Assembly (NCBI GenBank): GCA_028534125.1
Contig: CM052816.1
Location: 42,410,001-42,474,000 of the forward strand
Source of the DNA: Lama glama
Lineage: Eukaryota
DNA length: 64,000 bases
Direction of reading: 5' to 3'
Part shown: positions 11,677 to 59,139 of the stretch, in pieces
Layout: each line of letters starts with the position of its first letter
Numbering within the stretch: the stretch's first letter is position 1
Program-made: the position numbers and the translations under genes
The notes under the pieces: model-generated
The model's input: only the letters and a program-made list of their open reading frames with translations
Told to the model about the DNA's origin: nothing
Databases searched by the model: none

Positions 11677-11786
11677 TTGGCACATTGGAGGAGGTCACTG
11701 TCAGCCAGAAGCAACAGATTCAGAAGGATGGCAAGAAAAGAAATGGTATTTCACAGTACAATACTTGGTAAATTTTGTTTGAGCAT
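11677..11786 (-). pseudogene. Exon with RGS terminal helices (AQT/KIYQVLYCEIPFLFLPSF*)
   Basis: tttacctttctcctttccctcaag acceptor; decayed donor CAA|ataagt; restoring one A in ACAAAATT gives AQTKIYQVL, like RGS AQxKIYxLM. Confidence 0.55.
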
Positions 11787-11809
11787 CTTGAGGGAAAGGA
11801 GAAAGGTAA

Positions 11810-12030
11810 ATGGCATTTGTTTATCTCTGGTATGCCTGGCACTATACTTAAAATGACAAAGGTTTTTGTCTTGCATACAATCTACTGAGCGCAGACAGAT
11901 GTGTATTACTTCCTCCATTTTAAAGAAAAACAAACTGAGATAGTCAGATTTAGATCAAACCTCTCTCAAAAGCAGAGTCAAGAGCAACAATATGAACTGA
12001 TATCTCTGGCTCCCATGTCCAAACATTTTT
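11810..12030 (-). mobile_element. MIR SINE
   Basis: tatgcctggcactatact...cctccattttaaagaaaaacaaactgaga. Confidence 0.6.
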
Positions 12031-12176
12031 TTTTTTTTTTACTGTTGCCTCAAATGGTAACCAACACGTATCTCAAAGATTAAGAGATGTTCAAGAAAAG
12101 CTCAGACGACACAACTTCTCTTAGATATATTTTGGCTTCAACACTAGTCACTGAGTGCTCTGAACACAATCCTGTC

Positions 12177-12649
12177 TGTGGTAGCCAGTCTCCAAGATAG
12201 CCCCCTGCAACCCTGCCTCTTGGTGTTCACAGTCTGATATTCCTCCTCCCACATAATATTAGGATTGGTCTGTATGATCAATAAAATACAGCAGACACAA
12301 TGACATGTGACTTCAAGGCTAGGTCACTCCCTCTGGGGGAATCTAGCTCCCATGAGGTGAGGGGATTCGAGCGGCACCATGGAGAGGACCTCATGGTGGG
12401 GAATTTCCAGCAGTCATAGGAATAAGCCGTCTTGGAAGTAGTTCCTTCAGCACCAGTCAAGCCTTCAGGTGACTGCAGTCTCTGCTGATATTTTGATTGC
12501 AACTTCATGAGACACCTCGAGTCAGAGCCCCCCAGCTAATCTGCTCCCAGATTTCTGATTCACAGAAACTATGAGATAATAACATGTTTGTTGTTTTAAG
12601 CCACTAACTGTTGTAGTTAGCTGTTACACATCAATATATAACTAGTACA
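12177..12649 (+). mobile_element. MaLR LTR (MLT1F-like)
   Basis: tgtggtagccagtctccaagatagcccc ... tgttgttttaagccactaa...ataactagtaca. Confidence 0.85.
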
Positions 12650-12727
12650 GGTTTCTATTACATGGATAGAAAAAAACAAAACACAGTAGATTATGTGCCT
12701 CTGTTACACTGATAGATTCCATAGTCT

Positions 12728-12770
12728 GTCTACGGCCATACCACACTGAACGCACCCCATCTCATCCGAT
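12728..12770 (+). pseudogene. 5S rRNA 5'-end fragment (tailless retropseudogene)
   Basis: gtctacggccataccacactgaacgcaccccatctcatccgat matches nt 1-43 of mammalian 5S rRNA with ~5 mismatches; flanked by the imperfect direct repeat atag(at)tccatagtc. Confidence 0.9.
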
Positions 12771-12823
12771 ATAGTCCATAGTCATCTGCGGGAAGGGAAA
12801 AAAAATAGCAAGATTTCTGTCTC

Positions 12824-12853
12824 TAGATAGATAGATAGATAGATAGATAGATA
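12824..12853. repeat. (GATA)n microsatellite
   Basis: direct observation. Confidence 0.95.
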
Positions 12854-13038
12854 TTTTTTAAAGATTTTTTTGTTACACTTTCCAAACACTATTAACTTTT
12901 TATTTTGCTTTATCAAGGACTTGTAGTGAAAACAGAACAAAAATGGCAGGGCAAGGTCACTTCAACTAAAGAGTGAGGGTAAATACCTATGTGAATTTGA
13001 TGTTTTAACCAGTATGATTGAAAAATAAAATAACCTAC

Positions 13039-13129
13039 TGAGTGGGTGGGAGAAATGGTTGTGTAAATCCAGCTAAGTGCTGTGCCAGACTCTGACATAC
13101 AGCATCTGATGACAAACTCTGTCTGCAGG
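13039..13129 (-). pseudogene. 91-nt exon, phase 0->1 (PADRVCHQ...*...SHPL)
   Basis: gtgcttcatctttag acceptor, TCA|gtaggt donor; internal TAG in the phase-0 frame; reading frame uncertain. Confidence 0.45.
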
Positions 13130-14031
13130 CTAAAGATGAAGCACATGTTTGCTCATTGGTTATCAACTAGAAAACAAGGACCATCTGTTAATTACCACCA
13201 GAAGACTTGGAGAGAGAAAAATAAATGGAATCAAATTTTCCTCTGTCCGAGGTAGATTTTTTTTTTTTTTTTGTCTTCATGCTCTGGGGAAAGAAGCCTA
13301 TAATTAGGTCTAAAGAAAGTTCATTTAAATCTCTGATAACTTCTTGATTATATATAATATAAATACAAAAACATTTCCAGGGGAGGAATTAACACTCAAG
13401 TGGAAATACAGCATATAGGTCATAATGTCGTGATAAATTTTCACTGTATTATAGGGATAGCAAATATTACCATGGCACACATATTTGGGCTTTACTTTTG
13501 CCAAGTATTTTACCATTATTTTTACCTACTACCCATTAAAGCAATATGGTGTAATAGGTTAATACTCTAAACTCACAATTTCTAAATGAGGGATCTCAGA
13601 CAGGCTAGATACGTGCCTGAGTAGTTTCTGTAAGCATTAGGGCTAAACCTGGGTCATATCGTCTAACTCTTGTATTGCCTAACTCTTGTATTGTCTTCAG
13701 TGTGGCAAGTCCCAGAATGGGGGTTGGGGATGAAGGGGAGAAGAGATGGTGAAGACAACCACTTAAAAGTAACCTCTTTCCCCTTACCCTCATCCCCGGG
13801 CATCTGGTATTCTTAATAAGACCTTTCCATCCTGCTCTAAATCTTTCAAGGGATCGCAAATAGTGTAGCTTGTATATCCTTACAGTCTAATCCAAGCTGT
13901 TCACAATCCTGTCCTACCAATCATTAACCTAAATGAGCTGACCAAGCATGGGCCTCCTGGCTACTGTCTAACAGGCAGTTCCACTGCCCTCTGTCTAGTA
14001 CATTTCAGGCCCATGAGAGAAGCAGTTCACC

Positions 14032-17000
14032 CAGGTCTATACCTAACATTTGTAGGACTAGAGCAAGAACACAAATGGAGGCCCATATTTAAAAGTTATA
14101 AATCAGGCTAACAAAATTATTAGCTAAAATATGTCTTATCTTTCTATCTTGACAATCAATAGGTTTTATATGGCTGAAAATCAGCAAAACAACAAAGACT
14201 ACTACTAAATGTAATTACTGCACCTGTCTAAATGATATTTGGATGAGTAATAAAGACATCCATAATTCATAAAATATTATATACTATTCTGTAAAATATA
14301 TTTTTCTTGCCTTTGGTTCACCAAAATTATTATGTTGTTGAATCAAGATTTTTCACATAATCTGAATTCTGACAGGAAATGCCAAATTAGATGGTCTTTC
14401 TTAGGTTGAAATTATTATATAGTTTTTAATTCTCTTTGGAGAAGCTTAGCGCTGCTGAAACAGTGGCAAATGGAATTGTCAATAAAATTTTTAAAGCAGT
14501 AGTTCAGAAGTGAACATTCATTTCACATATCATGCTCACATATTGTAATGGGTTTGCACATGATAAATTATCATCTCAAAAAATATTACGAAGTATTTTA
14601 ATTTCATCAGAGAGGTTGCTATCACATTGTGGTTTTTCAGGATCTCAAGACACTATGTAGATTCATATAATAATTCTTAATTTTTCTGCTTTTACATTTT
14701 TCAGTTTTAGGATATTATAAAAATTTTAAAACAGCAGTCTTGCTCAATTTGTTCCAATCTTTCTTTGGTTTCTAATAGCCAGAAAATAGCCTTTATAGAT
14801 ATTAATAGAAATTAGTTTGGGTTCTTTTTTTTATGTGAATCTTCTGCTTTGTAGTCATATGAACATCTTTATTTCTTCATTTTAATTTTTTTTTGGATTG
14901 TCAGTTTTACTGTATATTGCACATGTAGTTTCTATTTATAAAAACCACTTTCAGTTTTAAGAGTTTTCAACCCTGTTAAAAGTTATATAGCCAAATTTAT
15001 ATTTTTTTCCTAAGCTTTTGCTAACATTATTAACAGCAAGTAAATACATGGATAGACATACTCAAAATTAATTGCATTTTCTGGCAAAAATCACAATTCA
15101 CTATTTGAGAAATTTTCTGTTTTTTCATTTAACTGCTCTAGTACATTTTGAATCTTGTTTAAATCTAACTGCTTTAGCAGTATTTGATCAGCACTCCCAT
15201 TGTTTATCCACGAATATCTATTAGGTCAAATTTTCTGTTTTCCTCAAGATGTTCCATCTTTGAACGGATCTTGAAAATACTATATAATGTTTAAACTCTT
15301 CCAAAGAATGTCAACAATATCAGCAGTATTGACACCATGACTTTTAGTAACAAATTCAAACCATGTATTGTAAATAGCATAAAGAATCATTCTGGATTTT
15401 TCACCAAAATGACATTTGTTGTTAGCACCAGTATCACAGTTTTGCTCCCAACAATCTTTTAAATCAGAGCCTAAAATGGAAGTTGTTTTTTCAATTTTTT
15501 CCTCAAGTCAAAAGCTCTACTTTTCCCAACAGGTTTGAAACCAATGGAATATTTATAATTTAACCTTCTCCTGGTTATTCAACATATATGTAAATATGTG
15601 TTATTTATGTAGCAATACTTGGATCCTGGTGCAATCAAGGAAATAGTTCTTGCTTTTCAAAATTTGGAGGATGATTTTTTTAATCTCACTTTATTATCTC
15701 TTAAATAAATAATTTCATTTTTAATTCTCCTTATTAGAGAATTATTATTTGTTTCATTACTTTTATCCATCTTATGTTTTTGATCATTCTTTCATCAAAT
15801 TACAAAATAATTTCTATAAATCCTAGACATCTGCCACTACATTTTATAAATATTTTGCTGTTCTGTCTTGAAAGGCATGGCTGAATATTGGATATACAAT
15901 ATTATTCTTTAAAGAACATATGCCTATGTACTATTTTGACATTTCTATTTGTGGAATATTATCAGTTGATTCTTTTTCATTCTCATTGTTTTAATTAGTA
16001 ACTAAATATTCATTTAATAAATAATAAAAAGTTGCAAGAGTTTTTTAACTGACCCATCTAAGTTGTAGATTTAATGAGAATAATGTTCTTGTTCATTTGC
16101 ATTGTTCTGATCAGTAGTTAAATCTTCACTAAATAAGAACTTGTAATCTCTTGTTTACAATTTCTATTAATGTCATGCTCAACAAGACTGCTCACTTTCA
16201 TCATTCCTATAGTTTTATTTCTAGCTTAACTAGAACTCTTCTTTGAAATTTTTTCTGTTTCTTTTTTCTTTCCAGCTTTTTTCTTTTCTAATCTCTATTC
16301 TTGAATTCTGTATTTCAACCCCAATTCTGTATCTTCACTGGCCCTTCATTCTCAATGATCTAAAAGATTTAAAAGTAAAATGTTATTGTAGAAAGTGTAT
16401 AAAATTTGAATTTATTTTAATCAAAAATGTAAATTAAAAATGCAGAAAAATAAAAATTTTCATGTGTTAAAATTATTTTTCTTCTAAAATATATAAAATT
16501 ATTAAAATTAAAGGGCAAAATATAAGCTATAATGAATATCAAATTATAAAGTAAAATTAAATAATGCTGAATTTTATTTTAATACTTGAAATTTTAATTA
16601 ATCTGATTAAACATTTTTATAAAAATGAAACTATTTGCATTTCTAGCATTCAATATTCACCTAGTTGCCAATGTTAAGAACTAGTATCACACATTAAGTA
16701 TATTACACCTAGACATAAATGCATACAAATTTAAGAGCAATATGAATTGTTTAATACTGCAAAATATTCCTAAGCCATCATATGCAATAACTGCAAATTC
16801 TGAGCACATCTGGAGTAAATCCAGAACCATGAACTGCTTTATATGAAGAGAAGCAAGAAAGTGGATGCTCAGCACCACTGGGAAATGAAACTTCATACTG
16901 CAAGTATCCACTGCATTCATGCTATGAGAAGGATTTGACAAGTTAATTAATTTATCTTTTCTCTTAGTGAAGTGCTTCTGCTGTTCAACTCCTCCCTGGA

Positions 17001-17402
17001 TGGTTGAAGCCTTCTCCTTTTCATATGTTGCGGGTAGCATAACCCATAATACTTCACAGCATTCAGATACAATTCCTTCTTTTTTTTTTTCTTTTTTAAT
17101 GGCGGTACTGGGGTTTGAACCGAGGACCTCATGCATGCTAAGCATGTGCTTTACACTGAGTTATATTCATCACCCCCCCACAACTCCTTTCTATTTCCAG
17201 GAGGTAGGTTAAAAGATGTGGAAAAGAATTTCCCTTTAGCCTGACGAGTGTTAATCACAAGCATGAATGTTTAGCAATAGAAGTGCCAATTTTTTTTAAT
17301 AATTTACTGTTTATGTGTGGTACATATTTGTGATTTGAGGGTCCTCTGAAGCAGAAGCACAGGGTCCACAGCTTCTTTTTCCCAAATCTAAGTATGCTAC
17401 TG
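14032..17402 (-). mobile_element. hAT-Tip100 DNA transposon remnant (Zaphod/Arthur1-like) with decayed transposase
   Basis: Minus strand at ~14400-14500 translates ALKILLTIPFATVSAALSFSK, matching the hAT C-terminal dimerisation motif (LTIP..T.SAERSFS); weak inverted ends caggtctatacctaacatttg / caaatctaagtatgctactg. Confidence 0.75.
17079..17179 (-). mobile_element. Camelid tRNA-derived SINE (Vic-1-like), short form
   Basis: ggcggtactggggtttgaaccgaggacctcatgcatgctaagcatgtgc; TSD acaa(t/c)tcctt. Confidence 0.9.
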
Positions 17403-17639
17403 AACTCATCTTTCCATATTTCCTCTCCTCCTTTCTTAGTCCACTGCCTCAGGGCACATCAAAATCACTATCCTCTCACCCTGCCAGCCCAGTTTAAAGC
17501 CCTGACTAACTAATTTACTCTTTCAGGCACTCCATGATTTATTTTAGAATTTGAGCTGAAAAAGTTCTTCAGACTCTCACAAGTTGTACAACATTCTTTG
17601 TGAGAAGAGCAGAAGTCCCTCCAGTGAGGATGGGCCATC

Positions 17640-17980
17640 CAATTTTCATACATGCTGTTCCCTCACCTGAAACACGTGCTCTCCTCACTTCAGATATTTG
17701 ACTCATCTAGATCTCAGCTCAGTTGTAACTTTCACAGAAAAGCCTCCCTTGTCAGCCCCAATGAGTTCAAATCCCTTTTGGTTATATTCCCCCATCATCT
17801 TGTTCTCTTTAACAGAGTGATGATTTTATATTTATTTCTGTAATTGGGTTAGTGTTTGTCTCCCTCCATAGAGAGGAAATGACACAAGGATCATGCCTGA
17901 TTGTGTTTTGGAACACCATTATATCCCCAGAGCTTAGCCCACAATGTACACATAGGAGACACTCGAGATTTAATTAATTG
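17640..17980 (+). mobile_element. L2 3' end
   Basis: catgctgttccctcacctg...agatctcagctcag...tatccccagagcttagcccacaatg. Confidence 0.7.
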
Positions 17981-18742
17981 GGAGTCATTCAGCTGCATCT
18001 TACACTCTGTTTTCTTGGTTTTAGACCTTGGTCCATCATGTGGCTAAAAAACCTATCCGTCTTTTAGCTCTCAGCTTAATAGTATCTTCCTGGGAAAGCT
18101 TTCCCAGGCCTCTTTGACTAATTCAAATCTCTTTGTTTTTTTTATGTGAGAAAAAAGTGTAAACTCCAGTTGGCCTCCTGACACGATTTCACAACATGTG
18201 TTTACACCTGAGCACCTGTGCTTCAGTGAACACTCTCCCAAGTTGTGAAAAATACTGTGTTAAAAAAAACTGGCTTTGTGGTGGGCAAAGGCAGTCCGGC
18301 AATCTTAGGAATATTTTCACTGGCTTAGCAAAACCTTCAGTTTGGCTACAGAGTATGGCCAATTTTAGCAATAGATATATCTTCCCCAAATCAAGTATCT
18401 GGAACACTGACTGATGTGGGAACTAGGAAATACTTTATCTAATATGATCACATATTTTGAAGTAGCTCAGGATTTATCTACAGCATTCAATTCTACCTGG
18501 ACACCAAGCAGCCAGAGAAACACAAACAGCTATTTCCGGAAAGTTTCTTGACTCCTTTTTTGCAAGTTTTAACTTCATTACCATGAAATCATTTGTTTGT
18601 TATAGAATGACTTTCATCCTGGTTCTGCTGAAAACTTGAAAAACTAGACAAACCAATAAATGATGGTAAAGCGTCTCTCTCCATTTTCTCACTACTCCCA
18701 ATATTTGCTGGAGACAGACCAAACTCTAATTTAGCTTCCTGC

Positions 18743-18808
18743 CTCTTGAGCTTTCCTATAAACATTTGCAGGATATTTGGCCCGCTTCTTTACAGAATTC
18801 TCCTTGTA
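18743..18808 (-). pseudogene. Candidate 66-nt exon (YKENSVKKRAKYPANVYRKAQE), phase 0->0
   Basis: gctgtcttttctttttaaag acceptor; GC-type or decayed donor GAG|gcagga; a second acceptor-like site at 18956 (IDEDSDEKIKKIY) lies upstream. Confidence 0.45.
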
Positions 18809-19324
18809 CTTTAAAAAGAAAAGACAGCAAAATTGGACTATAATAGTTGGACACTGACATCACCACCCCCAAAATAACTATTGTAAGTTGAATCAGCAAT
18901 GAAAGTTTTTCAGCAGATAGATCTTTTTTATCTTCTCATCTGAGTCTTCATCTATTCTAAGTAATGGAAAAATTAATTGGAAATGGCAAGTCAAGACGGA
19001 CAGATTCAAATGGGGTACCTCATTCTCATGAGTTACTGAATGTCCGTGTGGCCTAGGGGGGCTGGCAAGCTTTGTCTCAAACAACTGAACTTTCTATCCA
19101 AAGTGTCTGAAGGGCAGAGAAGGATTTTATTAAACTCAGTTAGTTGAGAGAAATGTGGGAAAGCATTAGACTAATTACACTCAAACTCAAATGATCAAGC
19201 ACTAGTTCACTGGCTCAATTAGAAGCTCTACTAAAGGAGACTCAGAAGCAAAGAAATTTGTTAATGTGTTAAATAAATTAGCAAAAATATGAATATGACA
19301 TTTAATCATGCCAGAAGGCCTGAC

Positions 19325-19415
19325 CTCCATTTGGAAAACAATGAGATTATCCTGGCAAAAAAAGTGTACCATCAAGTTCAGAGAAAGCGTGCACTGTACA
19401 CCTTTTCTGTATGGC
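19325..19415 (-). pseudogene. 91-nt exon (PYRKGVQCTLSLNLMVHFFCQDNLIVFQME), phase 2->0, start of an RGS-like segment
   Basis: gccttccctgtttctcag acceptor, GAG|gtcagg donor; open frame; CQDNL..F.ME resembles RGS SEENL.FW.E. Confidence 0.65.
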
Positions 19416-19642
19416 CTGAGAAACAGGGAAGGCAAACATCTACATTTTGTTCTATTCATATGAAAACAAGGCTAAAATTGCTTTGAGGTCTTTACTTCAC
19501 ACAAAATAGCATTCATCTTTTTTTATTAAGGTAATATGTTAGAAGTAGAGAGCCTAATTCATTTGTTTTTATCAGATAATACAATGGAAGTAGAGGTCCT
19601 AATAACTGTCTATTATCTTGCTTCTAGCTATAAAAGACATAC

Positions 19643-19703
19643 CTCAGTAGTTTTATCTGCTGTAAAACAGCAGATGTTTCTCCCGAGATTCTGTCTAAGT
19701 TCT
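19643..19703 (-). pseudogene. 61-nt exon (ENLDRISGETSAVLQQIKLLR), phase 1->2
   Basis: ctttgtttgctctaaag acceptor, GAG|gtatgt donor; open frame. Confidence 0.6.
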
Positions 19704-20593
19704 CTTTAGAGCAAACAAAGCACTTTCCTTTGTGGTTGAGAGGAGCCAAGGAAAGAGTCCTTGTCCAATTCCTAGGAATTCCAAATAGCACTGCCATATT
19801 GCTTCCCACCTGGTCTCAACTGGGAAGTGAAAGATTATTAAAAAGTTTCAATCATTTTTCAAATGCAGAAATGTTTTAACTTTTTGCCTTTACAAAACCA
19901 TCATGTAAGTATGCTTTTCTTTCCTCCTTCCCGCTTTGGATTATTTGTTTTTTGGTTATTTTTTAACCGTAGGTAAATAAACTGAAGTTGTTAAGTGTTG
20001 GTCCTGATATAATATGAGTAGTAAATTGAAATCCTTTCCTTTAAAATAATAAAAAAAACTTTGATAGTATTCTAAAGGTAGAGATGGCTAAAAAGTCACT
20101 TGGGGCAAATGCTGAACAACCTTTCTGCAGTGTTTTCAGTTAGAGTTAACTTTAGGGATTATGGTTTTAGTAAACACTTTGCCTCTATTGGATAATAATA
20201 ACTCTGGCTTTCATTAGCTATTTCATTTCTTGGCTGAAATTACTCTGAAATAAATGAAAGTCTGTGTTTATTTTGTAAATATTTCATTCGTGGGTTATAT
20301 GTTACATTTTGTCATTGGTCAAGTTTTATTAAGCGGAGACAAAAAAATAACTTCATGGGATTTTATTAAATATCCATGTTTTAAAGGTGAAGTTGGAAAC
20401 AAAATTTCTTCCCTTTATCATGTTGCTTAAATCTTATTTTTCATCCCTACCCATCATTATTTAACTGGCTTGTTACACAAAATATGCCTGTAAGATTGTC
20501 TCATAACATTGCTATGTCCTTAAAAATTTCCATGACCCATATTTTGGATTCTACCTTCAAGACTTTTTAAATAGTGAATAATTTTACGCTTAC

Positions 20594-20664
20594 CCAGGAT
20601 CCAATCTTTCCATTACTGTTTCTGTTTTCTGTGTCCCAGTTCACAGGTTTTTAGTGTAAAGCAG
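20594..20664 (-). pseudogene. 71-nt exon (CFTLKTCELGHRKQKQ*WKDWIL), phase 2->1
   Basis: TGG|gtaagc donor; acceptor decayed (tgttttcttcttatgg); one internal TAA; phases match both neighbours. Confidence 0.5.
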
Positions 20665-21199: not shown

Positions 21200-21300
21200 G
21201 GTGATGGTTAGTCTGTGTCAACTGCTCTAATCCTCCAGTTCCAAATTACCTAATCAAACAATAATCTAGGTGGTGCTGTGAAAGTTTTTTGTAGATGTGT
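21200..21300 (+). mobile_element. MLT2 (ERVL) LTR 5' fragment
   Basis: gtgatggttagtctgtgtcaact...taatctaggtggtgctgtgaaagttttttgtagatgtg. Confidence 0.65.
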
Positions 21301-21301
21301 G

Positions 21302-21304
<3 letters not shown>

Positions 21305-31017: not shown

Positions 31018-33406
31018 CAGTTATACCTTTTTAAATTGTGGTTCACAGGTAATGCAGTTTTTACAAATTGTAAGCCTGTGGCAACCCTGCTTAGAGCAAG
31101 TCTATCAGCATCATTTTTCCAACAGTCTTTGCTCACTTCATATCTCAGTGTCAACATTTTGATAATTCTTGAAGTATTTCAAACTTTTTCATTACTATTT
31201 TATGAGTTATGGTGATCAGTGACCAGTGACCTTTGATATTACTACTGTAATTGTTTTGGGGTGCCACAAATCACACCCATGCAAGACAGTAAACTTAATA
31301 GAGAAATGTGTGTGTTCTGACTGCTCCACTGATAAGCCGATCCCCCATCTTTCTCCCTCTCCTCTGGCCTCCCTATCCCCTGAGACACAATAATATTGAA
31401 ATTAGGCCAATTAATAACCCTGCAATGGACTCTTAAGTGTTCAAGTGAAAGGAAGAGTTGCACATTAAATCAAAGCTATAGATGACAGGTCAAAAGCTGA
31501 GATAAGCTGAAAGCTAGGCCTCCTGTGCCAAACAGCCAAGCTGTGAAAGCAAAGGGAAATTTCTTGAAGGAAATGACAAGTGCTACTCCAGTACATACAC
31601 AAACGATAAGAGAACCAAACAGCCTTACTGCCGATATGGAGACAGTTTTAGTGGTCTGGATACAAGATCAAACCAACCACAACAGTCTCTTAGGCAAACC
31701 TTTATCCAGAGCAAGCTCCTAACTCGCAACTCTGTGAAAGCCAAGAGAGGTGAGGAAGCTGCTGGAGAAAAATTTCAAGCTAGCAGAGGTTGGTTCATGA
31801 GGTTTTAAAAAAGAAGCCATCTCCATAACATCAAAGTGCAAGGAGAAGCAGCAAGTGGTGATATAGAAGCTGCAGCAAATTGTCCAGAAAATCTAGTTAG
31901 GATCACTAGCTACACTAAACAATAGATTTTTCATGTGAACAGAATATCCTTCTATTGGAAGAAGATGCTATGCAGGACTTTGATAGCTAGAAAGAAGTCA
32001 ATGCCTGGCTTCAAAGCTTCAAAGGACAGGCTGACTGTCTTGTTAGGGCTAATTCAGCTGGTGACCTGAAGATAAAAATGGTGCTCACTGACCATTCCAA
32101 AAATCCTAAGGCTCTTAAGAATTATGCTAAATCTACTCTACCTGTGCTCTATAAAATGGGAACAGCAAAGCCTGGATGAAAGCACATGTGCTGACATGGT
32201 TTACTGTATATTTAATGCCCAGTGTTGAGACCTACTTCTCAGGAAAAAAAAAACAAAAACGATTCCTTTCAAAGTATTACTGCTCATTGATATCTGTCCA
32301 CCCCAGAGCTCTGATGGAGACAGATAAGGAGATTCATGTGGCTTTCAATATGTATTCTGCAGCCCAAGGATCAAGGAATAATTTTGACTTCCAAGTCTTA
32401 TTGCTTAAGAAATACATCTCATAAGGCTATAGCTGGCATAGATACTGGTTCCTCTGATGGATCTGGGCAAAGTAAATTGAAAACCTTCAGAAAGGATTCA
32501 CTATTCTAGATGCCATTAAGAACACTTGTAATTAATGGGAAAAGGTCAAAATATCAGCATTAATAGGAGTTTGGAGGAAGTTGATTCCAGGCCTCATGGA
32601 TGACTGCGAAGGGTTTAAAATGTCACTGGAGGAAGTAACTGCAGATGTGATGAAAACTAGTAAGAAAACTAAAATCAGAAATGGAGCCTAAAGATGTGAC
32701 AGAATTGCTGCAATCTCATTAACAAACAAACAAACAAACAAAAAACACTTTAATGAGGAGTTGCTATGGATGAGCAAAGAAAGTGGCTTCTTGAGATGGA
32801 TTCTACTCGTGGTAGAAGTAGATTCTATGGTAAAAGTATATCCTGGTAGAAAGATGCTGTGAAAATTGTTGAAATGACAACAAAGGATTTTGAATATGAC
32901 ATAAAACTTAGTTGATAAAGCAGAGGCAGGGTTTGAGAGGACTGACTCCAATTTTGAAAAAAATTCTACTCTAGGTAAAATGCTGTCACACAGGAATGCA
33001 TTCTACAGAGAAATTTCTTATGAAATGGAGAGTCAATTGATGTGGCAAACTTCATTGTTGTCTTATTTTAAGAAACTGCCACAGTGACTCCCACCTTCAG
33101 CAAACACCACCGTGAAAGTCAGCAGTCATCAATATCTAGGTAAGACCTTCCACCAGAAAAAGATTGTAAGTCGCTGAAGGCTCAGATGATGGTTAGTATT
33201 TTTTAGCAATAAAGTATTTTTAATTAAGGTATGCATGTTGTTTCTTAGACACGATACTATTGCACACTTAACAAACCGAGTATAGTGTAAGCATAACTTT
33301 TACATGCACTGAAAAACCAAAAAATTTGTGTGATTTGCTTTATTGCAATAGTTGCTTTATTATAGTTGTCTGAAACCAAACTTACCATATGTCTAAGGTA
33401 TGCCTG
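31018..33406 (+). mobile_element. Tigger1-family (TcMar/pogo) DNA transposon, near full length, decayed
   Basis: TA|cagttatacc ... aggtatgcctg|TA; internal gaagctgc..tttcaagctagcagaggttggttcatgagg; inserted into an older L1. Confidence 0.95.
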
Positions 33407-33610
33407 TACAATGCAGTTGTAAAAAGGAATAAGGAAGCTTTCTATATAATGATGTGTAAATATACCCAAGATATATTAAATGAAAAAAGCAAAGCATAAA
33501 ACAGTGTAAAANNNNNNNNNNNNNNNNNNNNNNNNNNNNNNNNNNNNNNNNNNNNNNNNNNNNNNNNNNNNNNNNNNNNNNNNNNNNNNNNNNNNNNNNN
33601 NNNNNNNNNN

Positions 33611-45590: not shown

Positions 45591-46036
45591 AGTGTTTGGA
45601 GTAGGAAGACATGAGCACTTCACAGAACATATTCTAACCCCAAAATGGACTTAATATAACTGTCTTTAAAGACCCTCTCCACTAATACCAAAGCAATCAG
45701 ACCTAGTACAGTAAATGCGAAAGCAAAATTACTCCCATCTGCTAATGACCTAAGACCACAAGAAGTAACTGAATCTGTTGACCAATTGCTTCAGAAATTA
45801 ATGATCCAATATTAAGTATGCCAAGACCCAAATATTCATTTTCCACATACAAATTTCAGCAGCACTCAAATGGAAAATACTAAATAATTCAATAGGTCAA
45901 CTAATGTAATTATCTGAGGTTATATCTTGAAGATAACTTGGCAGGCTTATCAGGCTGCAGACCAGGTCAAATTAAAACATTGCACATGATCCCTATTAAA
46001 GTTCCATACAAAAAGCTGGTAACTATTGATACTTAC

Positions 46037-46096
46037 CAATGGAATATGTGTTCTTTGCTTGTGATATAAAATTTAGGAATTCAACAGAATGCTTGT
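46037..46096 (-). pseudogene. 60-nt exon (DKHSVEFLNFISQAKNTYSI), phase 1->1
   Basis: aaatgtttag acceptor, consensus donor TTG|gtaagt; 112-nt intron from the previous exon; open frame. Confidence 0.7.
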
Positions 46097-46208
46097 CTAA
46101 ACATTTAAGCATATAAAACACCCCGTGGGATAGATGTGTTCCACTGGGGTGGGTGTTCTATTCTCATAAAAATGTCATCATCTACAAGACTCATTTTTTA
46201 GATCATAC

Positions 46209-46389
46209 CTCAGTCCTGCTCCATGAACTTCAACAGTTCCTCCTTTGTTTCTGAGCTCATATTAACTGTCTTGGTAAGGTTACTGACATCCAAAAAACTG
46301 CTCCAAGGGGTTGAACAATGGGAAACTATGTACTTTACTTTTGCTTCCAGAAAAAACATGGTTTCTTCATGGTCATTATAAGAGTCAAC
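46209..46389 (-). pseudogene. 181-nt exon, RGS core (VDSYNDHEETMFFLEAKVKYIVSH...VNMSSETKEELLKFMEQD*), phase 0->1
   Basis: poly-T aag acceptor and GAG|gtatga donor; 59 open codons then in-frame TGA at 46210-46212. Confidence 0.75.
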
Positions 46390-46729
46390 CTTAAAAAAAA
46401 AAAAAGGAGTCAACCATATTAAGAATATTTCTGACTTTTTAAAGTCCTTTAGAAAATGTTGCCCAGTGTGGTGCTTAATGTTCCTATGTGAAAATTCTCA
46501 CAGAAGACTACCCTCCTGCTTATAAAAATGTGTAGCCTTCTGACATAATGAAAAGTATATAGCACATGCACTGTTCATTTTTATTTTATCTACCAGAAAC
46601 CTTGAAGCCAAATTTAGTGCTCAATGACAATAATTATCTTTAGCTGTTTGGGGGTGATAATTAACTTTTTTCCTTTATTATTTGGTTCATAGTCTCTTAA
46701 TAGTGTGTTATTAATATCAAAGTCTCAAA

Positions 46730-49090: not shown

Positions 49091-49284
49091 GGGGGGGAAA
49101 GGTATAGCTCAAGTGGGTAGAGCACATGCTTAGCATGCATGAGGTCCCGGGTTCAATCCCCAGTACCTCCTCTAAAAATAAATAAACAAACCTAATTACC
49201 TCCCTCCCCCTCCCCTAAAGATAAAATAAATAAGACAAAATAAAACATTAAAAAAATGACAAAAAAATAAAATAAAATAAATAA
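49091..49284 (+). mobile_element. Camelid tRNA-derived SINE (Vic-1-like), long form
   Basis: ggtatagctcaagtgggtagagcacatgcttagcatgcatgaggtcccgggttcaatccccagtacctcc (A and B boxes); A-rich tail; TSD ataaactgg(t/c)gg. Confidence 0.92.
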
Positions 49285-49514: not shown

Positions 49515-49539
49515 TGTGTGTGGAGTGTGTTTGTGTATG

Positions 49540-49577
<38 letters not shown>
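49515..49577. repeat. (TG)n microsatellite
   Basis: direct observation. Confidence 0.95.
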
Positions 49578-49578
<1 letters not shown>

Positions 49579-51325: not shown

Positions 51326-51409
51326 ATCTAAATAATACAAAACCCAAAAGACATGCCATGTTTTCAGATTTAAAAAAAAATAATAAAGTAACTGCCAACA
51401 AAAACATCA
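51326..51409 (-). pseudogene. Candidate exon, RGS N-terminal helices (DVFVGSYFIIFF/KSENMACLLGF)
   Basis: Strong acceptor ttgttttgtcttcctgcag, phase 2 start; frameshift in a T9 run; donor weak and uncertain. Confidence 0.55.
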
Positions 51410-51854
51410 CTGCAGGAAGACAAAACAAATATAAAGAGAATTTAAGAGGTAGGTTGTGGCCTCTTTTCCTTCATGAACCACTACCTTCCTTGTTTTTAAG
51501 ACTGCTTGGCTGTATTAGCAATTTTTAGCACACAGTAGCTCAAATCAACAATACATTTGCTCTTCAGACTTTGACACCTCCCCAGCTGCTAGGCCTGTGC
51601 TTAACCAAACAAGTACAGTAGAGCAAGTAGAACATTTATGTAACACAGAGACTATAAATGTTCTTTGAGAAACAAAGAGATCTACTCATTCTAGAAGATA
51701 TGACAAAGGGATAAGAACATTACACTTTAAAACAGATTTAAAACTCCTATGAGGAATTATATGTATCTCATAAATTTGTAGCTAAAAGCATCACACCATT
51801 TGTTTACTGACAATAAAATATCCTTTCTTTTCTCTAAATAATTTTTAAAAATTC

Positions 51855-52060
51855 ATTTAGCAGCTATCTGGTGTTAGATACTATACTAAGAACTTCACAT
51901 GCATTCCTTCATTTAATCCTTGAAACAATCCTATGAGGTGTACTTTTATCTTCATTTTGTAGATGGAGAAACTAAGACATAAGGTCATTCAACTATTAAA
52001 TACTGGACCATGGTTTGAACTCATGAGGTCTGACTTCAGAGCCTGTGTTCTTACCCACTG
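51855..52060 (-). mobile_element. MIR SINE
   Basis: tcatttaatccttgaaacaatcctatgagg...cattttgtagatggagaaactaag. Confidence 0.85.
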
Positions 52061-52452
52061 TGGACAAATCAAAATGACACTAAAGAATTTTCAGAATAAA
52101 AGAGATATCAAAATACGTGAAATAAACATTACTGATAATAAAATCATAAAACAATCCTATCTATGGTCTTTCTTTTCCCACTGACAGATATTTAGTGACT
52201 TCCCTTACCAACACTAACGCTTCCCCCTTTCTGCCTTTTTCTCTTAATACACGTGCACGCACGCATGCACGCACACACACAGCCACACTAATAGTACCTG
52301 TCGTATTGAAAAATACAGCAGGAAAAATGTTCTACTTCAAAAAATGGACTAAATGCTAAGTGAACTTATGGGGTAGGGAGGTGAAGAGAGATCCTTATTT
52401 AAACAATCGATTAGCTGTTCCCACTTGTGTGTTTACTTCTAGGTAAACTCAT

Positions 52453-52587
52453 TTACAGGTACATAGGAACAAGTAAAAAAGTCTCTCCAGACGATCTGGT
52501 TCCTGGATTTCCTTCACTTCTCTGCTCAAGTAGAAGGCCTGCTTTTTACCTGACAGAAACAAATGCAGTGGGTTTTCCAGAACAGAG
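52453..52587 (-). pseudogene. Candidate 135-nt exon (SVLENPLHLFLSGKKQAFYLSREVKEIQEPDRLERLFYLFLCTC), phase 2->2
   Basis: aatttatttttag acceptor; open frame; decayed donor AA|atgagt. Confidence 0.55.
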
Positions 52588-52637
52588 CTAAAAATAAATT
52601 TTCTCTGAATAAACTTAGCTCTTACTGAAGCAGATCC

Positions 52638-52846
52638 TGTAGACTATCATTTTCCAGCCTACAGAACTTTCAGTGATGAAGGAAATGCTTAACATCTCTG
52701 CTGTACAATACAGCAGCCACTAGCCACATGTGGCTACTGCAAACTTGGTATGAGGCTAGTGTAACTTAGAACAAACTTTTTAACTTATCTCATTTTAAAC
52801 AATCACGTATAGGTAATGGCTATCATTTGGACAGAATAGCTATAGA
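52638..52846. mobile_element. MER3 hAT MITE
   Basis: agaactttcagtgatgaaggaaatg...gcagccactagccacatgtggcta. Confidence 0.85.
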
Positions 52847-52849
52847 CTC

Positions 52850-53050
52850 ATCTCAATAACTACCATTCACTGAGTGTCTATTATGTGCTACAAAGCTACC
52901 TTTGAGGAAGGTAATATTTTGTCCCCACTTTACAGATAAAGAACTTGAGGCTAAAAGAGATTAAGTGACTTGCTCATGGCTTTACAACTAATAAGTGGTA
53001 AATTCTGGATTTTACACCCATGTCTGTCCCTCTCATGGCCTGAGACTTTC
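52850..53050 (-). mobile_element. MIR SINE
   Basis: ccccactttacagataaagaacttgaggct...ttaagtgacttgctca. Confidence 0.8.
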
Positions 53051-53054
53051 ACTA

Positions 53055-53250
53055 TCAGTTGTTCCCAACACTGGCTGCATATTAGCTGGTGTGCTTTTCA
53101 AAAATGCTCATCCTCAAGTCCCACGTCTCAGTAATTTTTATTTAATTGGTCAGGGGCAGAGCTCAGGGACATGCATATCTCTGAAACTTCCACTGTGCAA
53201 CGCAGGTGTGACCAAGTCCTCCTGGCAGTGGATGACCATTTTCGAATAGG
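53055..53250. mobile_element. MER5A-like hAT MITE
   Basis: cagttgttcccaacactggctgcatattag...cttttcaaaaatgctcat. Confidence 0.6.
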
Positions 53251-53894
53251 AGCTAAGATGAAGTTCTACTTCTACCTCTTCTCTTCAGCCTGGTTACCAG
53301 TTTAAGGCTAAAAAAGGTCCCAGCCCTTCTTTTTGCAGATCAGAGTAAATATCTAAGAGAGTTATTCTGAGCTAGGGTGAGGTCACATAGCTGGTGTTTT
53401 AATGGAGAAGAGACCGGCCTTGGGCATGAATTTATATGTAAGTGCTCCAGCTTTTGGTGTTGTGGGGACAGCAAACAAGCAAAAGTCAGGAAAGCTGTTA
53501 AGGGACTAAAGCCCTATGCAGCAACTCAGAAGCCCAATGGCAGACAAAGGCTGGGAGTATGTAGCATTTGACTATTTCTGGAGGTGGGGATACTGGGCTC
53601 TCCCAGACTTAGTTTTATCTTCTGCATCCTCTCTTTCTATCACTCCAATGTCCTCAGGAGTGGTCTAAGAGCCTTTATTCAGCTTTCTTCACTCTTCCAA
53701 GGTTACTTCTTTTTGTGTGTGTTAAGATATAGCTGACATACAACATTACATTAGTTTCAGGTGTACAGCATAGTAATTCATCACTTGTATGCCTTACAAA
53801 ATGACCACCACAATAAGCTTGGTTAACATCAGCATCAAACATCATTACAAAAAAATTTTTTCCTTGTGATGTGATAAACTGTCAACATTAATCT

Positions 53895-53995
53895 TTTTTG
53901 CTTGTTTGTTTTTCCCTTTAACAGAGGCATTGGGAATTGAATCCAGGACCTCATGCACACCAAGCACATGCTCTACCACTGAGCTATATACCCTG
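53895..53995 (-). mobile_element. Camelid tRNA-derived SINE (Vic-1-like)
   Basis: gggaattgaatccaggacctcatgcacaccaagcacatgctctaccactgagctata. Confidence 0.85.
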
Positions 53996-54260
53996 TACCC
54001 CTGTTGATGTTATTTTTAACAGAGATACCCTTACCTTTGCACTTAAGCGGTGATTAAAATTATGACTGTGAAATAAATGAAAGCAGATTTTGGGATTCAA
54101 GAGACTGAGATTCCTCACTTTCTGGATGAGTTCAGGTATCTGAATATGTATTTGGTAAATAACTTTGAAAAAACCAAAACAAAAAAGTTCCTTCAGAACC
54201 TTTGCACGTGACTCACAAAAGTAGGTAAAGAAGATGACATCAGTCTCTAGGGCAGGATTA

Positions 54261-56803
54261 CAGGTTTACCTCCTTTTATTGTACTTTGTAGGTACTATAT
54301 TTTATATAAATTGGAGGTTTGCGGCAATCCTGTGTCAGGAAAGTCTATTGACATCATTTTTCCAATAGCATTTGCTCACTTCATGTCTCTGTGTCACATT
54401 TTGGTAATTCTCAAAATATTTCAGATTTTCATTATTATAACAATTGTTTTGGTGATCTGTGTTCAGTGATATTTGATGTTACTACTGTAATTGTTTTGGG
54501 GTGTCATAAACTGTGCCCATATAAGACAGCAAACTTAATAAAGTTTGTGTGTGTTCTGACCTGCTGTTCCCCCATCTCTCCCTCTCCTTGGGTCTCCTTA
54601 TTTCCTGAGACACAACAGTATTGAAATTAAGCCAATTAATAACCATGCAATGGCCTCTAAGTGATCAGTGAAAGGAAGATTCGAACTTCTCTCACTTTAA
54701 ACCAAAAGGTAGAAATGATTAAGCTTAGTGAGGGAGGCATGTTGAAAGCTGAGATAAGATAAACAAGTTCCTTCTATATAGCACGGGGAACTATATTCAA
54801 TATCCTGTAGTAATCTATAATGAAAATGAATATGAAAACAGATATATGTATGTGTATGCATGACTGAAACATTATGCTGTACACTAGAAACTGTTACATG
54901 GTAAACTGACTATACTTCAATAAGAAAGAAGAAAGCAAGCAAGCAAGCAAGCAGGCAGGCAGGCAAGCAAGTAAGCAAGCTGAGATTGGCTGAAAGATAG
55001 GCCTCCTGCACAAAACATTTGACCAAGTTGTAAAGTCTAAGGAAAAGTTCTTAAAGGAAATTAAAAATACTACTCCAGTAAACACATGAATGATAACAAA
55101 GCAAAATAACATTATCGTTCATATGGAGATGTCTAGTTATAGTAGTCTGCATAGAAGATCAAAAAACAGCCACAAAGTTCCCTTAAACCAAGCCCTAACT
55201 CCCCTCAACTCTATGAAGGCCAAGAGAGGTGAGGAAGCTGCTGAAGAAAAATTTCAAGCTAGCAGAGGCTGGTTCATTAAAAAAGAAGCCATCTCCATAA
55301 CATCAAAGTGCAAGGTGAAGCAGCAAGTGCTGATGTAGAAGCTGCAGCAAATTATCCAGAAGGTCTAGCTGAGATCTCCAGCTACACTAAACCGTAGGTT
55401 TTTCATGCAGACGAAACACCCTCCCAATTAGAAGAAGATGCCACGCAGCACTTTCATAGCCAGAGAGGAGAAGTCAATGCCTGGCTTTAAAATTTCAAAG
55501 GACTCACTTGTTAGGGGCTAAGGCAGCTGGTGACCTAAAGTTGAAGCTAATATTCATTGACCATTCCAAAAATCCAAGGGCTCGTAAGAATTATGCTAAA
55601 TCTACTCTACCTGTGCTCTATAAAATGGAAACAGCAAAGCCTGGATGTGCTGACAACATGGTTTACTGAATATTTAATGCCCACCGTTGAGACCTACTAC
55701 TCAGAAAAAAAGATTCCTTTCAAAGTATTACTGCTCATTATTATCTGGCCACCCAATAGCTTTAATGGAGATGTACAAGGAGATTCATGTTGCTTTCAAT
55801 ATCTATTCTGCAGCCCATGGATCAAGGAATAATTTTGACTTTCAAGTCTTACTACTTAAAAAATACATTTCATAAAGCTATGGCTGCCATAGATACTGAT
55901 TCCTCTGATGGATCTGGGCAAAGTAAATTGAAAACCTCCTGGAAAGGATTCACCATTCTGGATGCCATTATGAATACTGGTAATTAATGGGGAAAGGTCA
56001 AAATATCAACATTAACAGGCGTTTGGAAGAAGCTGATTCCAACCTCCATGAATGATTTTGAGACATTCAAGACTCAGTGGAGAAAGTAACTGCAGATGTG
56101 GTGAAAACAGTAAGAAAACCAGAATCAGAAGTAGACCCTGAAGATGTGACAGAATTGCTGCAATCTCATGAAAAAAACCTAAACTGATGGGGAGTTGCTT
56201 CTTATGGATGAGCAAAAAATGTGGTTTCTTGAGATGGATTCTACTCCTGGTAGAAGCAGATTCTGTGGTAAAGTAGATTCTGGTAGAAAGAAGATAATGT
56301 GAAAATTGGTGAAATGACAACAAAGGATTTATAATATTACATAAACTTAGTTGATAAAGCAGAGGCAGGGTTTGAGAGGATTGACTCCAATTTTTAAAAA
56401 GTTCTACTGTAGGTAAAATGCTATATCAAACAGCATAGTATGCTACAGAGAATTCATTTGTGAAAGCAAGAGTCACAAGGAGTCACATCTTTGTGGCAAA
56501 CTTCATTGTTGGCTTATTTTAAGACAGGCATCAACACTGAGGCAAGACCTTTCACCAGCAAAAAGATTACAACTGCCTAAAGGCTCAGATGATAGCATTT
56601 TTTAGCAATACAGTGTTTTTAAATTAAGGTATGTACCTTGTTTTTTAGTTCTATTGCACACTTAATAGACTACAGTATAGCATAAACATAACTTTTATAT
56701 GCCCTGGGGAAACCAAAAAATATGCGTGACTCACTTTATTGTGGTATTTTCTTCACTGTGGAGATCTGGAACCAAACCTAGGACATCTCTAAAGGTATGC
56801 CTG
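54261..56803 (+). mobile_element. Tigger1-family DNA transposon, near full length, decayed
   Basis: TA|caggtttacctc ... aggtatgcctg|TA; transposase remnant [21 protein letters not shown]. Confidence 0.95.
54756..54976 (+). mobile_element. L1 3' terminus inserted in Tigger1, with (AAGC/AGGC)n tail
   Basis: gataaacaagttccttctatatagcacggggaactatattcaa...tatacttcaataa; TSD aagctgagat at 54746-54755 and 54977-54986. Confidence 0.9.
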
Positions 56804-57189
56804 TATGTTTTGTTTCAGGGACTGTAAAGGCTGAAAAGTGATAAACTAAGAAGAGAAAATGAGAATACTGGCAAAAATTTAAACAGAGGAATTGATACTG
56901 TGCTCATACACACTCCAAGGGTCCTGGTAAGCACTGGAAACCTGCATTTATCCTTGTCTTGGGTTAGGAGACCTCTAAATCGAATTCTGGGGGTTGAAAA
57001 GAAAATCAACAATGCAAACGAAACTCACAAAAATTTCAAATGCTGCTGTAAACATTACCCACTTAGACTAGCCAAGTATGTCTTTCTCTCCTACTAGAAC
57101 AGAGGAAAAATAAAAATAATTTGTGATTAAGATTCTCCTCAGGAATGGTGTGTGGCTATAAAATGCACTATGGAAATCATCTCTCAGTT

Positions 57190-57393
57190 CAGGAACTCAG
57201 CACAGCTGCTCCAATAAGAAGGTTGTCTATGTTCTGAAGCTCAATGAACTTGTATTCTAAGAATATGCCTTTAGAAGTAACAGCTCTGAAAGCCATGAGC
57301 AAAAAAATCTCAAGGATGATTGCAGCAAATGGCTTCAAATAAAAAAATCTAGTCTGTTGGCAAGTACCCTTTAGAAGGCAGGACTTGAATTCT
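57190..57393 (-). pseudogene. Candidate exon (EFKSCLLKGTCQQTRFFYL...), 3' boundary uncertain
   Basis: gattttatttcaag|A GAA TTC, phase 2 start; frame open to the stop at 57189 (ORF track); no clear donor identified. Confidence 0.4.
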
Positions 57394-58107
57394 CTTGAAA
57401 TAAAATCACCAATCATTCTTATGGCCTGCTGCTTACGAAAGTAGGGAAAACAGGTTTTTGGAGCTACAGCTGCAGATTCAAAAATGAGTATCAGTAGATT
57501 TTGCTTTAGTAATGTAAAAAGTAAAACATTCCCAAAGGGAACAGAAAGAATTAGCTAAGGATGTTTAGAGATGTGAAAGAAGATAATGGTAGAAAAAGCC
57601 ACTTCAAATATCTCCAGACTTGAATTTCAAGCCAAGGTTTCTTTTGAATCTTATCTATCACCCCAGGCCTTTTTTTCTTTCTTTCTTTCTTTTTTTTTTT
57701 CCCTTTCTTAATAGTAATATATGCCCAAGGCTTAAGAATAACACAGAGGTGTGTAAAACTAAACTGTTAAAATCTTCTGACCTCTATCTGTTCTCAATCC
57801 TGTTCCAAATCTCTAGAAATTTCTTTTTTTAAATCATTGCCTAGCTCTTAAGGTTAGGTTAAAGAAATACCTAGTCAGATATGCGTAAGTCTATTTCTCT
57901 GATCTCGAATTTTCTATTAGGGGCCAGTTGTGTAAGCTATAAGATAGGAGACAGAATCAAAAGATGGAAACTCTACTGCTCACTTCTTCCCAATCACTTT
58001 TGTGCCTTTGAGCAAAGAACGTCCTCCCTGGAATGCTTTTCCCCAGATGGAAAGTAAGAGAAGTGAAAACACTGATTCCTGGTTCACTTTGAATTTAAAT
58101 CTTCTGT

Positions 58108-58447
58108 ACCAGTGCTATCCAAGAGAAGCCTAAGTGAGCAACAAATGTGAGTCACATTAGTCACTTTAAGTTTTTTTCATAACCATTAAAACTAAAAAGA
58201 AGCAGGTGAAGGTAATTTTAATAATTTTTTCATAAATATATTCAAAATAGTATGATGTCAACATGTAAGCAACATTAAAACATTAAAATTTTAACAACAT
58301 AAATAATAGTTTCCATTCTATTTTTCCAATTAAGTATTCAAAATCTAGCGTGTATTTGACAAAAGACATCTCAGTTCAGACTAGCTACATTTCAAGTGTT
58401 CAGGAGTGACATGTGGTTAATTGCTACTTTCTGAGTAGCACAGCTTT
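58108..58447. mobile_element. MER33-like hAT MITE
   Basis: ccagtgctatccaa...aaaatctagcgtgtattt...gctacatttcaagtg...gacatgtggtta. Confidence 0.8.
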
Positions 58448-58500
58448 ACATTAGTGCTGGACATTATTTCAGAAAAGCTCTCTTCCAGTGAGTAGCTCAC

Positions 58501-58529
58501 TTCTGCATCTCTATACTTGATTGCCTCTG
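58501..58529 (-). pseudogene. Candidate 29-nt exon (QRQSSIEMQK), phase 0->2
   Basis: gttttgttgacag|CAGAGG...GCAGAA|gtgagc; phases match both neighbours. Confidence 0.45.
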
Positions 58530-58912
58530 CTGTCAACAAAACATTATTATTGATTATCATTTGTTGACAATATTTAATTATCAACCAGAAAGTGTTGAAT
58601 CTACTTAGACTTCTCATAGAGATTCAGTTATCAGATTGTTGATTAATACCAGTGCTGTTTCCGCATAATATATTTAGTCTTCAAGTGAATTTTTTCTTGT
58701 CTGGCTGTGTCACTCCTATTGAATTTTAGATCATTTACCCTGAGCTTCATAGAACAACTGGGACATAGTATTATTGTTAATTAACAATTTGAAAAGGAGC
58801 CTAAGCTTTTAAAAGCAGATTAAATCACTCACTTGTATCCTATCAATAATGTTCTCCACCTCTCAATTCTTTCACTAAAAACACACCTAATATTAAAAAG
58901 CATAAGCATTAC

Positions 58913-59139
58913 CGAGCAATGAAAGTCTAGTAGGTAAAATAGCATTTAACCATTGTACTGCTGACTTATAAATTCAACGAACTCTTGAATACCTTCCAAA
59001 GGCCAGGACCTGTGCTTGATTTTGAGGATTCCTACCTTGGTGGTTTAATTTCAAAGATTCCATCAGAGTAGCCCATTAGCAAAGGCTCTGGCATTTATGT
59101 ATTGGGGTAAGGGGTAGATTTGTAATCTAGGGTATCTTC
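58913..59139 (-). pseudogene. Candidate exon (RGS22-like N-terminal or first RGS segment)
   Basis: cttgtctatag|GAAGAT...TGCTCG|gtaatg. Reads EDTLDY...PEPLLMGYSDGIFEIKPP, then after a frameshift SWPLEGIQEFVEFISQQYNG*MLFYLLDFHCS. Contains several stops. Confidence 0.5.

What the first reader, a model, noticed from the sequence alone, without database searches (positions are those of the whole stretch)
11677..59139. Hidden ~47-kb multi-exon gene relic encoding tandem RGS-like domains, possibly an undescribed RGS22/RGSL1 paralogue
Seen: about 18 minus-strand segments with polypyrimidine-AG acceptors and GT-type donors, each in a repeat-free island, which the ORF track does not reveal as a gene. 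Established: RGS domains follow the pattern F..FL..E.S.ENL.FW..VE.FK...KA..IY....P.EVNID..T.E.I.......F..AQ..IY.LM; RGS22 and RGSL1 are large proteins with several divergent RGS domains. Inference: the spliced translation contains about three such segments (59/57 kb, 51-39 kb, 19-11 kb). It resembles, but does not match, RGS22 or RGSL1 as I recall them, which suggests a separate family member lost in this lineage and perhaps intact in other vertebrates.
Basis: partly seen in the sequence, partly recalled or inferred. Interest (0 to 1): 0.85.

Follow-up and report, generated by a model that had tools for sequence, protein, structure and literature searches.

The report
Possible fossil RGS exon, unproven gene
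In this stretch of non-coding mammalian DNA, one 275-base piece possibly is the decayed remnant of a G-protein-regulator (RGS) domain from a long-dead gene, at about even odds against chance, while the proposed 18-exon, three-domain gene found no support.

Summary
Splice-like minus-strand segments exist, but the other strand has nearly as many (18 vs 11, p=0.26). No piece hit RGS in Pfam, PDB or the ESM Atlas, and no protein search returned an RGS protein. I built an RGS profile from 38 fetched domains. The DNA just upstream carries the missing N-terminal RGS motif (4 of 392 random neighbours as good). The span shows a minus-strand transcription-type skew, and 57416-57044 is conserved in another mammal (92/120 vs 37/73 codons). 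It is not RGS22: the bovine chain is in PDB and is not hit. Verdict: one possible RGS remnant; the multi-domain paralogue is unproven (about 20%). Splicing and orthologous loci could not be examined. The scan had not noted this on other DNA.

The parts
46209..46483 (-). Candidate decayed RGS-domain exon (about helices 1-6); 90 stop-free codons, then TGA and a GT donor; its own acceptor is weak
   Evidence: Rank 1 of 4260 tiles, E 0.9; rank 1 of 118 open runs, P 0.001 uncorrected; glocal 1/91 shuffles as good; 2/93 and 10/93 decoy profiles as good; acceptor -0.9, donor 7.7, stops per frame 9/1/7
46382..46415 (+). Poly(A) micro-insertion: 13 A flanked by an exact 9-nt direct repeat; on the minus strand it creates the T-tract acceptor at 46389
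   Evidence: 1 of 9 long A/T runs has such flanks; L1-type origin is inferred
46037..46096 (-). 60-nt candidate exon after a 112-nt gap; strong donor, weak acceptor; RGS helix-7-like only with a frameshift
   Evidence: adds no more than random 60-mers (69 of 197 as good)
57044..57416 (.). Block conserved with another, unnamed mammal; frame-breaking indels between the two; coding or regulatory nature undecided
   Evidence: P0009/P0010; 92/120 codons identical vs 37/73 in the flank (p=0.0003); RGS test not significant
59036..59139 (-).
19325..19819 (-). Two well-formed AG..GT segments (19819-19643, 19415-19325); no RGS signal
11677..18958 (-). Further reader-type segments near 18.96, 18.81, 12.79 and 11.79 kb; strong acceptors, no RGS signal
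54263..56805 (.). Tigger-like transposon copy (label recalled), absent at this site in the other mammal
   Evidence: 77% to a second copy at 31494-33408; P0010 reads across the empty site
11677..59139 (-). Span with T>A and G>C excess on the minus strand in non-repeat DNA
   Evidence: TA +3.6+-0.8%, GC +3.8+-1.1%; outside, TA -2.3+-1.6 and -0.9+-2.8, GC +7.1 and +7.3

Best explanation
The span is non-coding today and is likely part of an old minus-strand transcription unit that possibly keeps one decayed RGS-domain exon at 46483-46209 from a gene that would have died early in or before placental evolution. Inferred: the gene was dead or the DNA intronic when that tail was inserted, and decay since then erased most other exons. 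The protein, if it existed, would most likely have been a divergent, non-catalytic RGS-fold scaffold like RGS22.
For: Best of 4260 six-frame tiles and of 118 open runs against a blind RGS profile. Spliced glocal alignment 20.0 vs 9.8+-3.1 and 14.1 vs 6.9+-3.2, 1 of 91 shuffles as good in each; plus strand 8.0 and 7.2. Sub-region 0 of 116. These tests share one signal and are not independent of each other. hhalign: 67 co-linear columns, P 0.0024, probability 12%. Minus-strand skew has the sign reported for non-template strands of human genes (PMC10030826, passages). Six RNA-labelled runs hold 11-44% of the words of 45900-46500; two of them are labelled reproductive system. Negative library searches are weak: a clear hAT fossil in this window scores only 15.6 bits when targeted and is missed in a longer read-through.
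Against: Local spliced score equals the null (20.0 vs 20.0+-1.9, 148 shuffles). Decoy profiles reach it 2 and 10 times in 93. Best hand-repaired score 11.5-12 bits, while intact fetched domains score 68-155 bits in Pfam. With the insertion cut out at DNA level the glocal scores fall to 11.6 and 4.2 (my cut removed one base too many). The single motif blocks are at chance. Exon 46096-46037 adds nothing. No relative among 1.84 billion representatives, none in PDB, Pfam or Atlas. AlphaFold with RGS rows gave pLDDT 66 and no Foldseek match at E<=0.001. The stretch is not among the 22 most protein-like windows by composition. The acceptor at 46483 is weak. The family was chosen by eye from many, so p near 0.02 is modest. 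RNA word shares fit spliced exons (0.32-0.48) and unspliced DNA of a 2.5-4% diverged relative (0.28-0.46) equally.
Confidence: 0.47

Rival explanations
1. Chance over-reading: the span is ordinary intronic, lncRNA or intergenic DNA with a conserved regulatory element at 57.4-57.0 kb. The exons are chance AG/GT sites in T-rich DNA and the RGS likeness is the best of many possible motif matches.
For: Segment counts 18 vs 11 (p=0.26). Open runs of 90 codons or more are common: 33 real, 21-32 in 15 shuffles. All library searches empty. Two of three regions at null. In the conserved block visible changes fall evenly on codon positions 1 and 2 (13 vs 10), with frame-breaking indels.
Against: The upstream motif sits in place and in order (4 of 392); glocal 1 of 91; the RGS signal, skew and acceptor excess are all on the minus strand. 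Synonymous changes in the frame of P0010 are invisible, so that frame is not excluded as coding.
Confidence: 0.45
2. The locus is the camelid RGS22 or RGSL1 orthologue, or a gene lost only recently and intact in other placental mammals.
For: A 90-codon open stretch and some well-formed splice sites would fit a young loss.
Against: Bovine RGS22 (9fqr_Ha, 1257 aa) is in the PDB copy and none of six window pieces hits it at E<=10. A close intact relative would have been found by phmmer if the library holds it; the collection does hold vertebrate proteins. Earlier notes place SH3TC2, CD14, SLC22A4, CCDC152 and SPEF2 on this piece (unchecked). These are human chromosome 5 genes, while RGS22 and RGSL1 lie on 8q22 and 1q25 (all positions recalled). 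RGSL1 itself could not be fetched.
Confidence: 0.04

Closest known systems
RGS domain, Pfam PF00615
   Same: Order of motif pieces over profile positions 7-84.
   Different: Score far below the gathering cut-off of 23.9 bits; the Asn and Phe of the conserved core motif are absent; extra residues before the helix-5/6 loop; C-terminal helices not found.
RGS22 (radial-spoke protein with four divergent RGS domains that lack G-alpha contact residues; PMC13443885 and PMC11779644, passages read)
   Same: A large AT-rich multi-exon locus with possible reproductive-tissue RNA would fit. By eye the 46-kb stretch loosely resembles residues 681-737 of the bovine chain as printed; not scored by any tool.
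   Different: No phmmer hit to the bovine chain from six window pieces or from the orthologous ORF; only one domain-like stretch; different chromosome context (recalled).
RGSL1
   Different: No sequence could be obtained, so no test; its human position (1q25, recalled) does not fit this piece.
Fossil genes behind mammalian lncRNAs and unprocessed pseudogenes (GLCPs; PMC5577775, passages and supplement searches)
   Same: Would be the same kind of object. That paper reports that sequence similarity to the lost gene is rare and short, and that conserved pieces can reflect enhancer overlap.
   Different: No syntenic intact gene is identified here. The supplement tables give Ensembl ids, and searches for RGS, regulator and signaling found nothing.

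Membership tests
RGS domain (PF00615) | Profile match at or above the gathering score (23.9 bits) | tested here: not met
   No RGS family reported for 20, 27, 15 and 5 queries; own profile gives at most 12.0 bits after repair
RGS domain (PF00615) | Co-linear run of conserved motif blocks | tested here: inconclusive
   1/91 shuffles, 2/93 and 10/93 decoys, 4/392 neighbours; local score at null
RGS domain (PF00615) | Nine-helix bundle fold | tested here: inconclusive
   pLDDT 51 alone and 66 with RGS rows; VIA best Z 4.4, no RGS listed; Foldseek RGS10 at rank 13, E 8.6
RGS22/RGSL1-like multi-RGS proteins | Three or four tandem RGS domains | tested here: inconclusive
   Only 1 of 5 sub-regions beats its null. 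The test is weak for such domains: two real RGS22 domains scored 0.5 and 1.4 bits against an intact three-RGS protein
RGS22 (orthologue) | High sequence identity to mammalian RGS22 | tested here: not met
   Bovine chain present, not hit at E<=10
RGSL1 (orthologue or paralogue) | Sequence similarity to RGSL1 | not testable with these tools
   No RGSL1 sequence was returned (one search gave 3 proteins of 8000 scored, none RGS22 or RGSL1)
Unitary pseudogene / GLCP | Disabled reading frame | tested here: met
   Stops or frameshifts in the candidate chain; also true of any non-coding DNA
Unitary pseudogene / GLCP | Intact orthologue at the syntenic position in another vertebrate | not testable with these tools
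   No vertebrate genomes are held; protein searches found none
Unitary pseudogene / GLCP | Excess, codon-patterned conservation at exon coordinates | tested here: inconclusive
   Excess at 57416-57044 (92/120 vs 37/73); no position-1/2 bias; third positions invisible; other segments untested
Spliced transcript (pseudogene RNA or lncRNA) | RNA joints at the proposed splice sites | not tested
   No read alignment was obtained; word shares are ambiguous

The most novel reading that the evidence does not exclude
The span is the fossil of an undescribed third large multi-RGS gene related to RGS22 and RGSL1, a likely axonemal scaffold, lost in or before placental mammals, still transcribed in the germ line and intact at the syntenic place in non-placental vertebrates.
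Probability: 0.2. Interest if true: 0.6.

Novelty: new member of a known kind. Interest (0 to 1): 0.3.

Why it matters
RGS22 is a metazoan radial-spoke part needed for coordinated ciliary beating (PMC13443885). A lost third relative would mark a change in sperm or cilia structure on the way to placental mammals, and could be studied in frog, lizard or chicken. As a class, fossil genes of this kind are known and number in the hundreds (PMC5577775). If the likeness is chance, what remains is an ordinary conserved non-coding element and a small poly(A) insertion that creates a splice-acceptor-like site.

Tried and rejected
No whole genome is held. Pfam on open frames and stop-read-through pieces: no RGS. 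phmmer of the 58-aa core against 1.84 billion representatives gave 5 hits, all internally repetitive proteins with short matched stretches, rejected as spurious. Word-index search of the core: 0 of 1 candidate. ESM Atlas: no usable hit, recognition 1585 and 1370. PDB phmmer/hmmsearch of six window pieces, P0010 and alignment A4: no RGS chain. Related-locus scan of metagenome contigs: 0 of 589 pattern matches confirmed. The RGS motif pattern in viral contigs: 0. An attempt to fetch RGS22/RGSL1 with an alignment gave only a Dictyostelium protein and two SNX13. Two AlphaFold models and two fold searches: uninformative. The first spliced-alignment run had too cheap introns and was discarded. The join used a wrong frame for the 60-nt exon and was redone. 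Composition test: no support. hhalign of the 57, 18.8 and 51.4 kb pieces: P 0.19, 0.15, 0.17. Rfam: only two tRNA-like SINE heads. A human chr5 lncRNA with coelacanth similarity (XLOC_056958, 57 kb, three exons) could not be tied to this window, and by my estimate its position and strand do not fit; I read 60 of 78 chr5 places in that table. Literature searches (listings only) showed no third RGS22/RGSL1-like gene; subscription papers and bioRxiv supplements are not covered. A whole-window six-frame Pfam scan was not completed. Earlier scan notes: no look-alike by place or sequence; two searches returned unrelated notes.
Full report
Setting. The window is AT-rich, CpG-poor mammalian DNA with gaps of 600 N. 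It carries L1, Tigger-like, hAT-like and tRNA-derived SINE pieces (most labels recalled). No whole genome is held. Earlier, unchecked scan notes call the genome a camelid and place SH3TC2, CD14, CCNI2 and SLC22A4 21-33 Mb before and CCDC152 and SPEF2 32-37 Mb beyond this window. From memory these are human chromosome 5 genes, whereas RGS22 and RGSL1 lie on 8q22 and 1q25.

Are the exons there? I read the whole minus strand and scored splice sites with a simple matrix of recalled frequencies. In hand-masked non-repeat DNA of 11677-59139 there are 18 AG..GT segments on the minus strand and 11 on the plus strand at acceptor>=8 and donor>=6 (p=0.26). Strong acceptors are 55 vs 31 (p=0.013). Stop-free runs of 90 codons or more number 33, against 21-32 in 15 shuffles. 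The span has a minus-strand skew, TA +3.6+-0.8% and GC +3.8+-1.1%; outside it TA is -2.3 and -0.9 while GC stays positive at about +7. G and T excess marks the non-template strand of human genes (PMC10030826, passages), so this fits long germ-line transcription of the minus strand. Replication skew or my mask could contribute. Of 24 listed runs, 14 DNA or untyped runs hold all sampled words of 45900-46500 and six RNA-labelled runs hold 11-44%, two of them labelled reproductive system. Those shares fit spliced exons and unspliced DNA of a slightly diverged relative equally. No read alignment was obtained, so splicing is untested.

Library searches. Pfam reported no RGS family for any piece. The 58-aa core found only five repetitive, unrelated proteins among 1.84 billion representatives and nothing by word index. 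The ESM Atlas gave no usable hit twice. The PDB copy holds bovine RGS22 (9fqr_Ha), yet six window pieces do not hit it at E<=10. That excludes the orthologue but not a remote paralogue. These negatives are weak for old relics: an evident hAT fossil here scores 15.6 bits when targeted and is missed in a 700-aa read-through.

A purpose-built test. A degenerate RGS motif fetched 114 metagenome loci; eight of eight tested ORFs are RGS by Pfam. From these and three fetched proteins I built a 38-domain profile. Blind over 4260 six-frame tiles the best is at 46449, E 0.9; with the first, 25-sequence profile it was third. Among 118 open runs of 70 codons or more, 46497-46210 is first (P 0.001, about 0.12 after correction) and 57554-57189 twelfth. 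A splice- and frameshift-aware aligner chooses 46477-46213, profile positions 7-84. Its local score equals the null (20.0 vs 20.0+-1.9). When the alignment must span most of the domain it scores 20.0 and 14.1, with 1 of 91 shuffles as good in each; the shorter span was chosen after seeing the alignment. Block-shuffled decoy profiles reach these values 2 and 10 times in 93. By sub-region only 51.5-36 kb stands out (0 of 116); 60-51.5 kb (30 of 150), 36-20 kb (108 of 110), 20-11.6 kb (41 of 150) and 11.6-0 kb (39 of 131) do not. A canonical profile is, however, poor at RGS22-type domains: two real ones scored 0.5 and 1.4 bits against an intact three-RGS protein.

A correction to the anatomy. The T-tract before 46389 is, on the plus strand, a run of 13 A between two exact copies of a 9-nt word; no other of the 9 long A/T runs has such flanks. 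I read it as a retroposed poly(A) tail with its target duplication, so this acceptor is not ancestral. The open frame runs through it, and the 23 codons upstream supply the Phe-Leu-Lys, Glu, Leu, Trp pattern at the spacing of the profile. Offering that neighbour raises the core from 4.7 to 12.0 bits; 4 of 392 random neighbours with the same 30 choices do as well. The downstream 60-nt exon adds nothing (69 of 197). Removing the insertion at DNA level lowered the glocal scores, because a frameshift is then needed (the cut was one base too long). hhalign gives probability 12%. AlphaFold, even with 17 RGS rows, gave no model that Foldseek matches to RGS.

The 57-kb segment. Its open frame hits a cluster of 12 unnamed ORF calls with no Pfam family. 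They are read-throughs of orthologous DNA of another mammal: co-linear with 57416-56806, then across the empty site of the Tigger-like block into 54.2 kb. Codon identity is 92/120 in 57416-57044 and 37/73 beyond; for the part outside the query frame it is 45/60 (p=0.004). The flank includes the stretch after the transposon, and an indel-rich bin between them (14/20) was left out of both counts. The block has three frame-breaking indels and no bias between codon positions 1 and 2 (13 vs 10), which argues against four of the five other frames; the fifth has a stop in the camelid. It is a conserved non-coding element, or a former exon in the frame of P0010, where silent changes cannot be seen. 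Its RGS likeness is not significant.

Mechanism and verdict. Best reading (0.47): a long-dead minus-strand gene of which one RGS-domain exon is still faintly legible; a later poly(A) insertion made a new acceptor. If real, the protein would most plausibly be a non-catalytic RGS-fold scaffold like RGS22, which has four divergent domains lacking G-alpha contacts and sits in radial spokes (PMC13443885, PMC11779644; passages). That step is inference by analogy. The chance reading is almost as likely (0.45), since the family was picked by eye from many. The class of object is known (PMC5577775; passages and supplement searches). My searches found no paper on a third such gene. Interest 0.3: cheap to settle with a multi-species alignment and synteny, which were not available here.

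Noticed in passing
window 3549-3627 and 1852-1930: Two similar copies of an about 80-nt element 1.7 kb apart, same orientation (local alignment); no Rfam match.
   Followed up: partly
window 14300-16400 (-): Decayed hAT-type transposon; dimerisation region scores 15.6 bits, below cut-off.
   Followed up: partly
window 31494-33408 and 54977-56805: Two Tigger-like copies, 77% alike; the second is absent at its site in another mammal.
   Followed up: partly
window 63937-63783 (-): 155-nt segment with the strongest acceptor-donor pair tested and one open frame, 51% GC; no Pfam match; may be LTR-derived.
   Followed up: partly
window 49098-49171 (+), 53922-53993 (-): tRNA matches in Rfam, likely heads of tRNA-derived SINEs.
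   Followed up: no
L035:3-1445 (+): A 481-aa protein with three RGS domains from a metagenome contig; its best PDB match is bovine RGS22 (E 1e-9), only slightly ahead of RGS2. Organism unknown; RGS22 is described as metazoa-specific.
   Followed up: no
P0009-P0020: The protein collection holds unnamed ORF calls that are read-throughs of non-coding mammalian DNA; they can serve as a view of orthologous DNA.
   Followed up: yes
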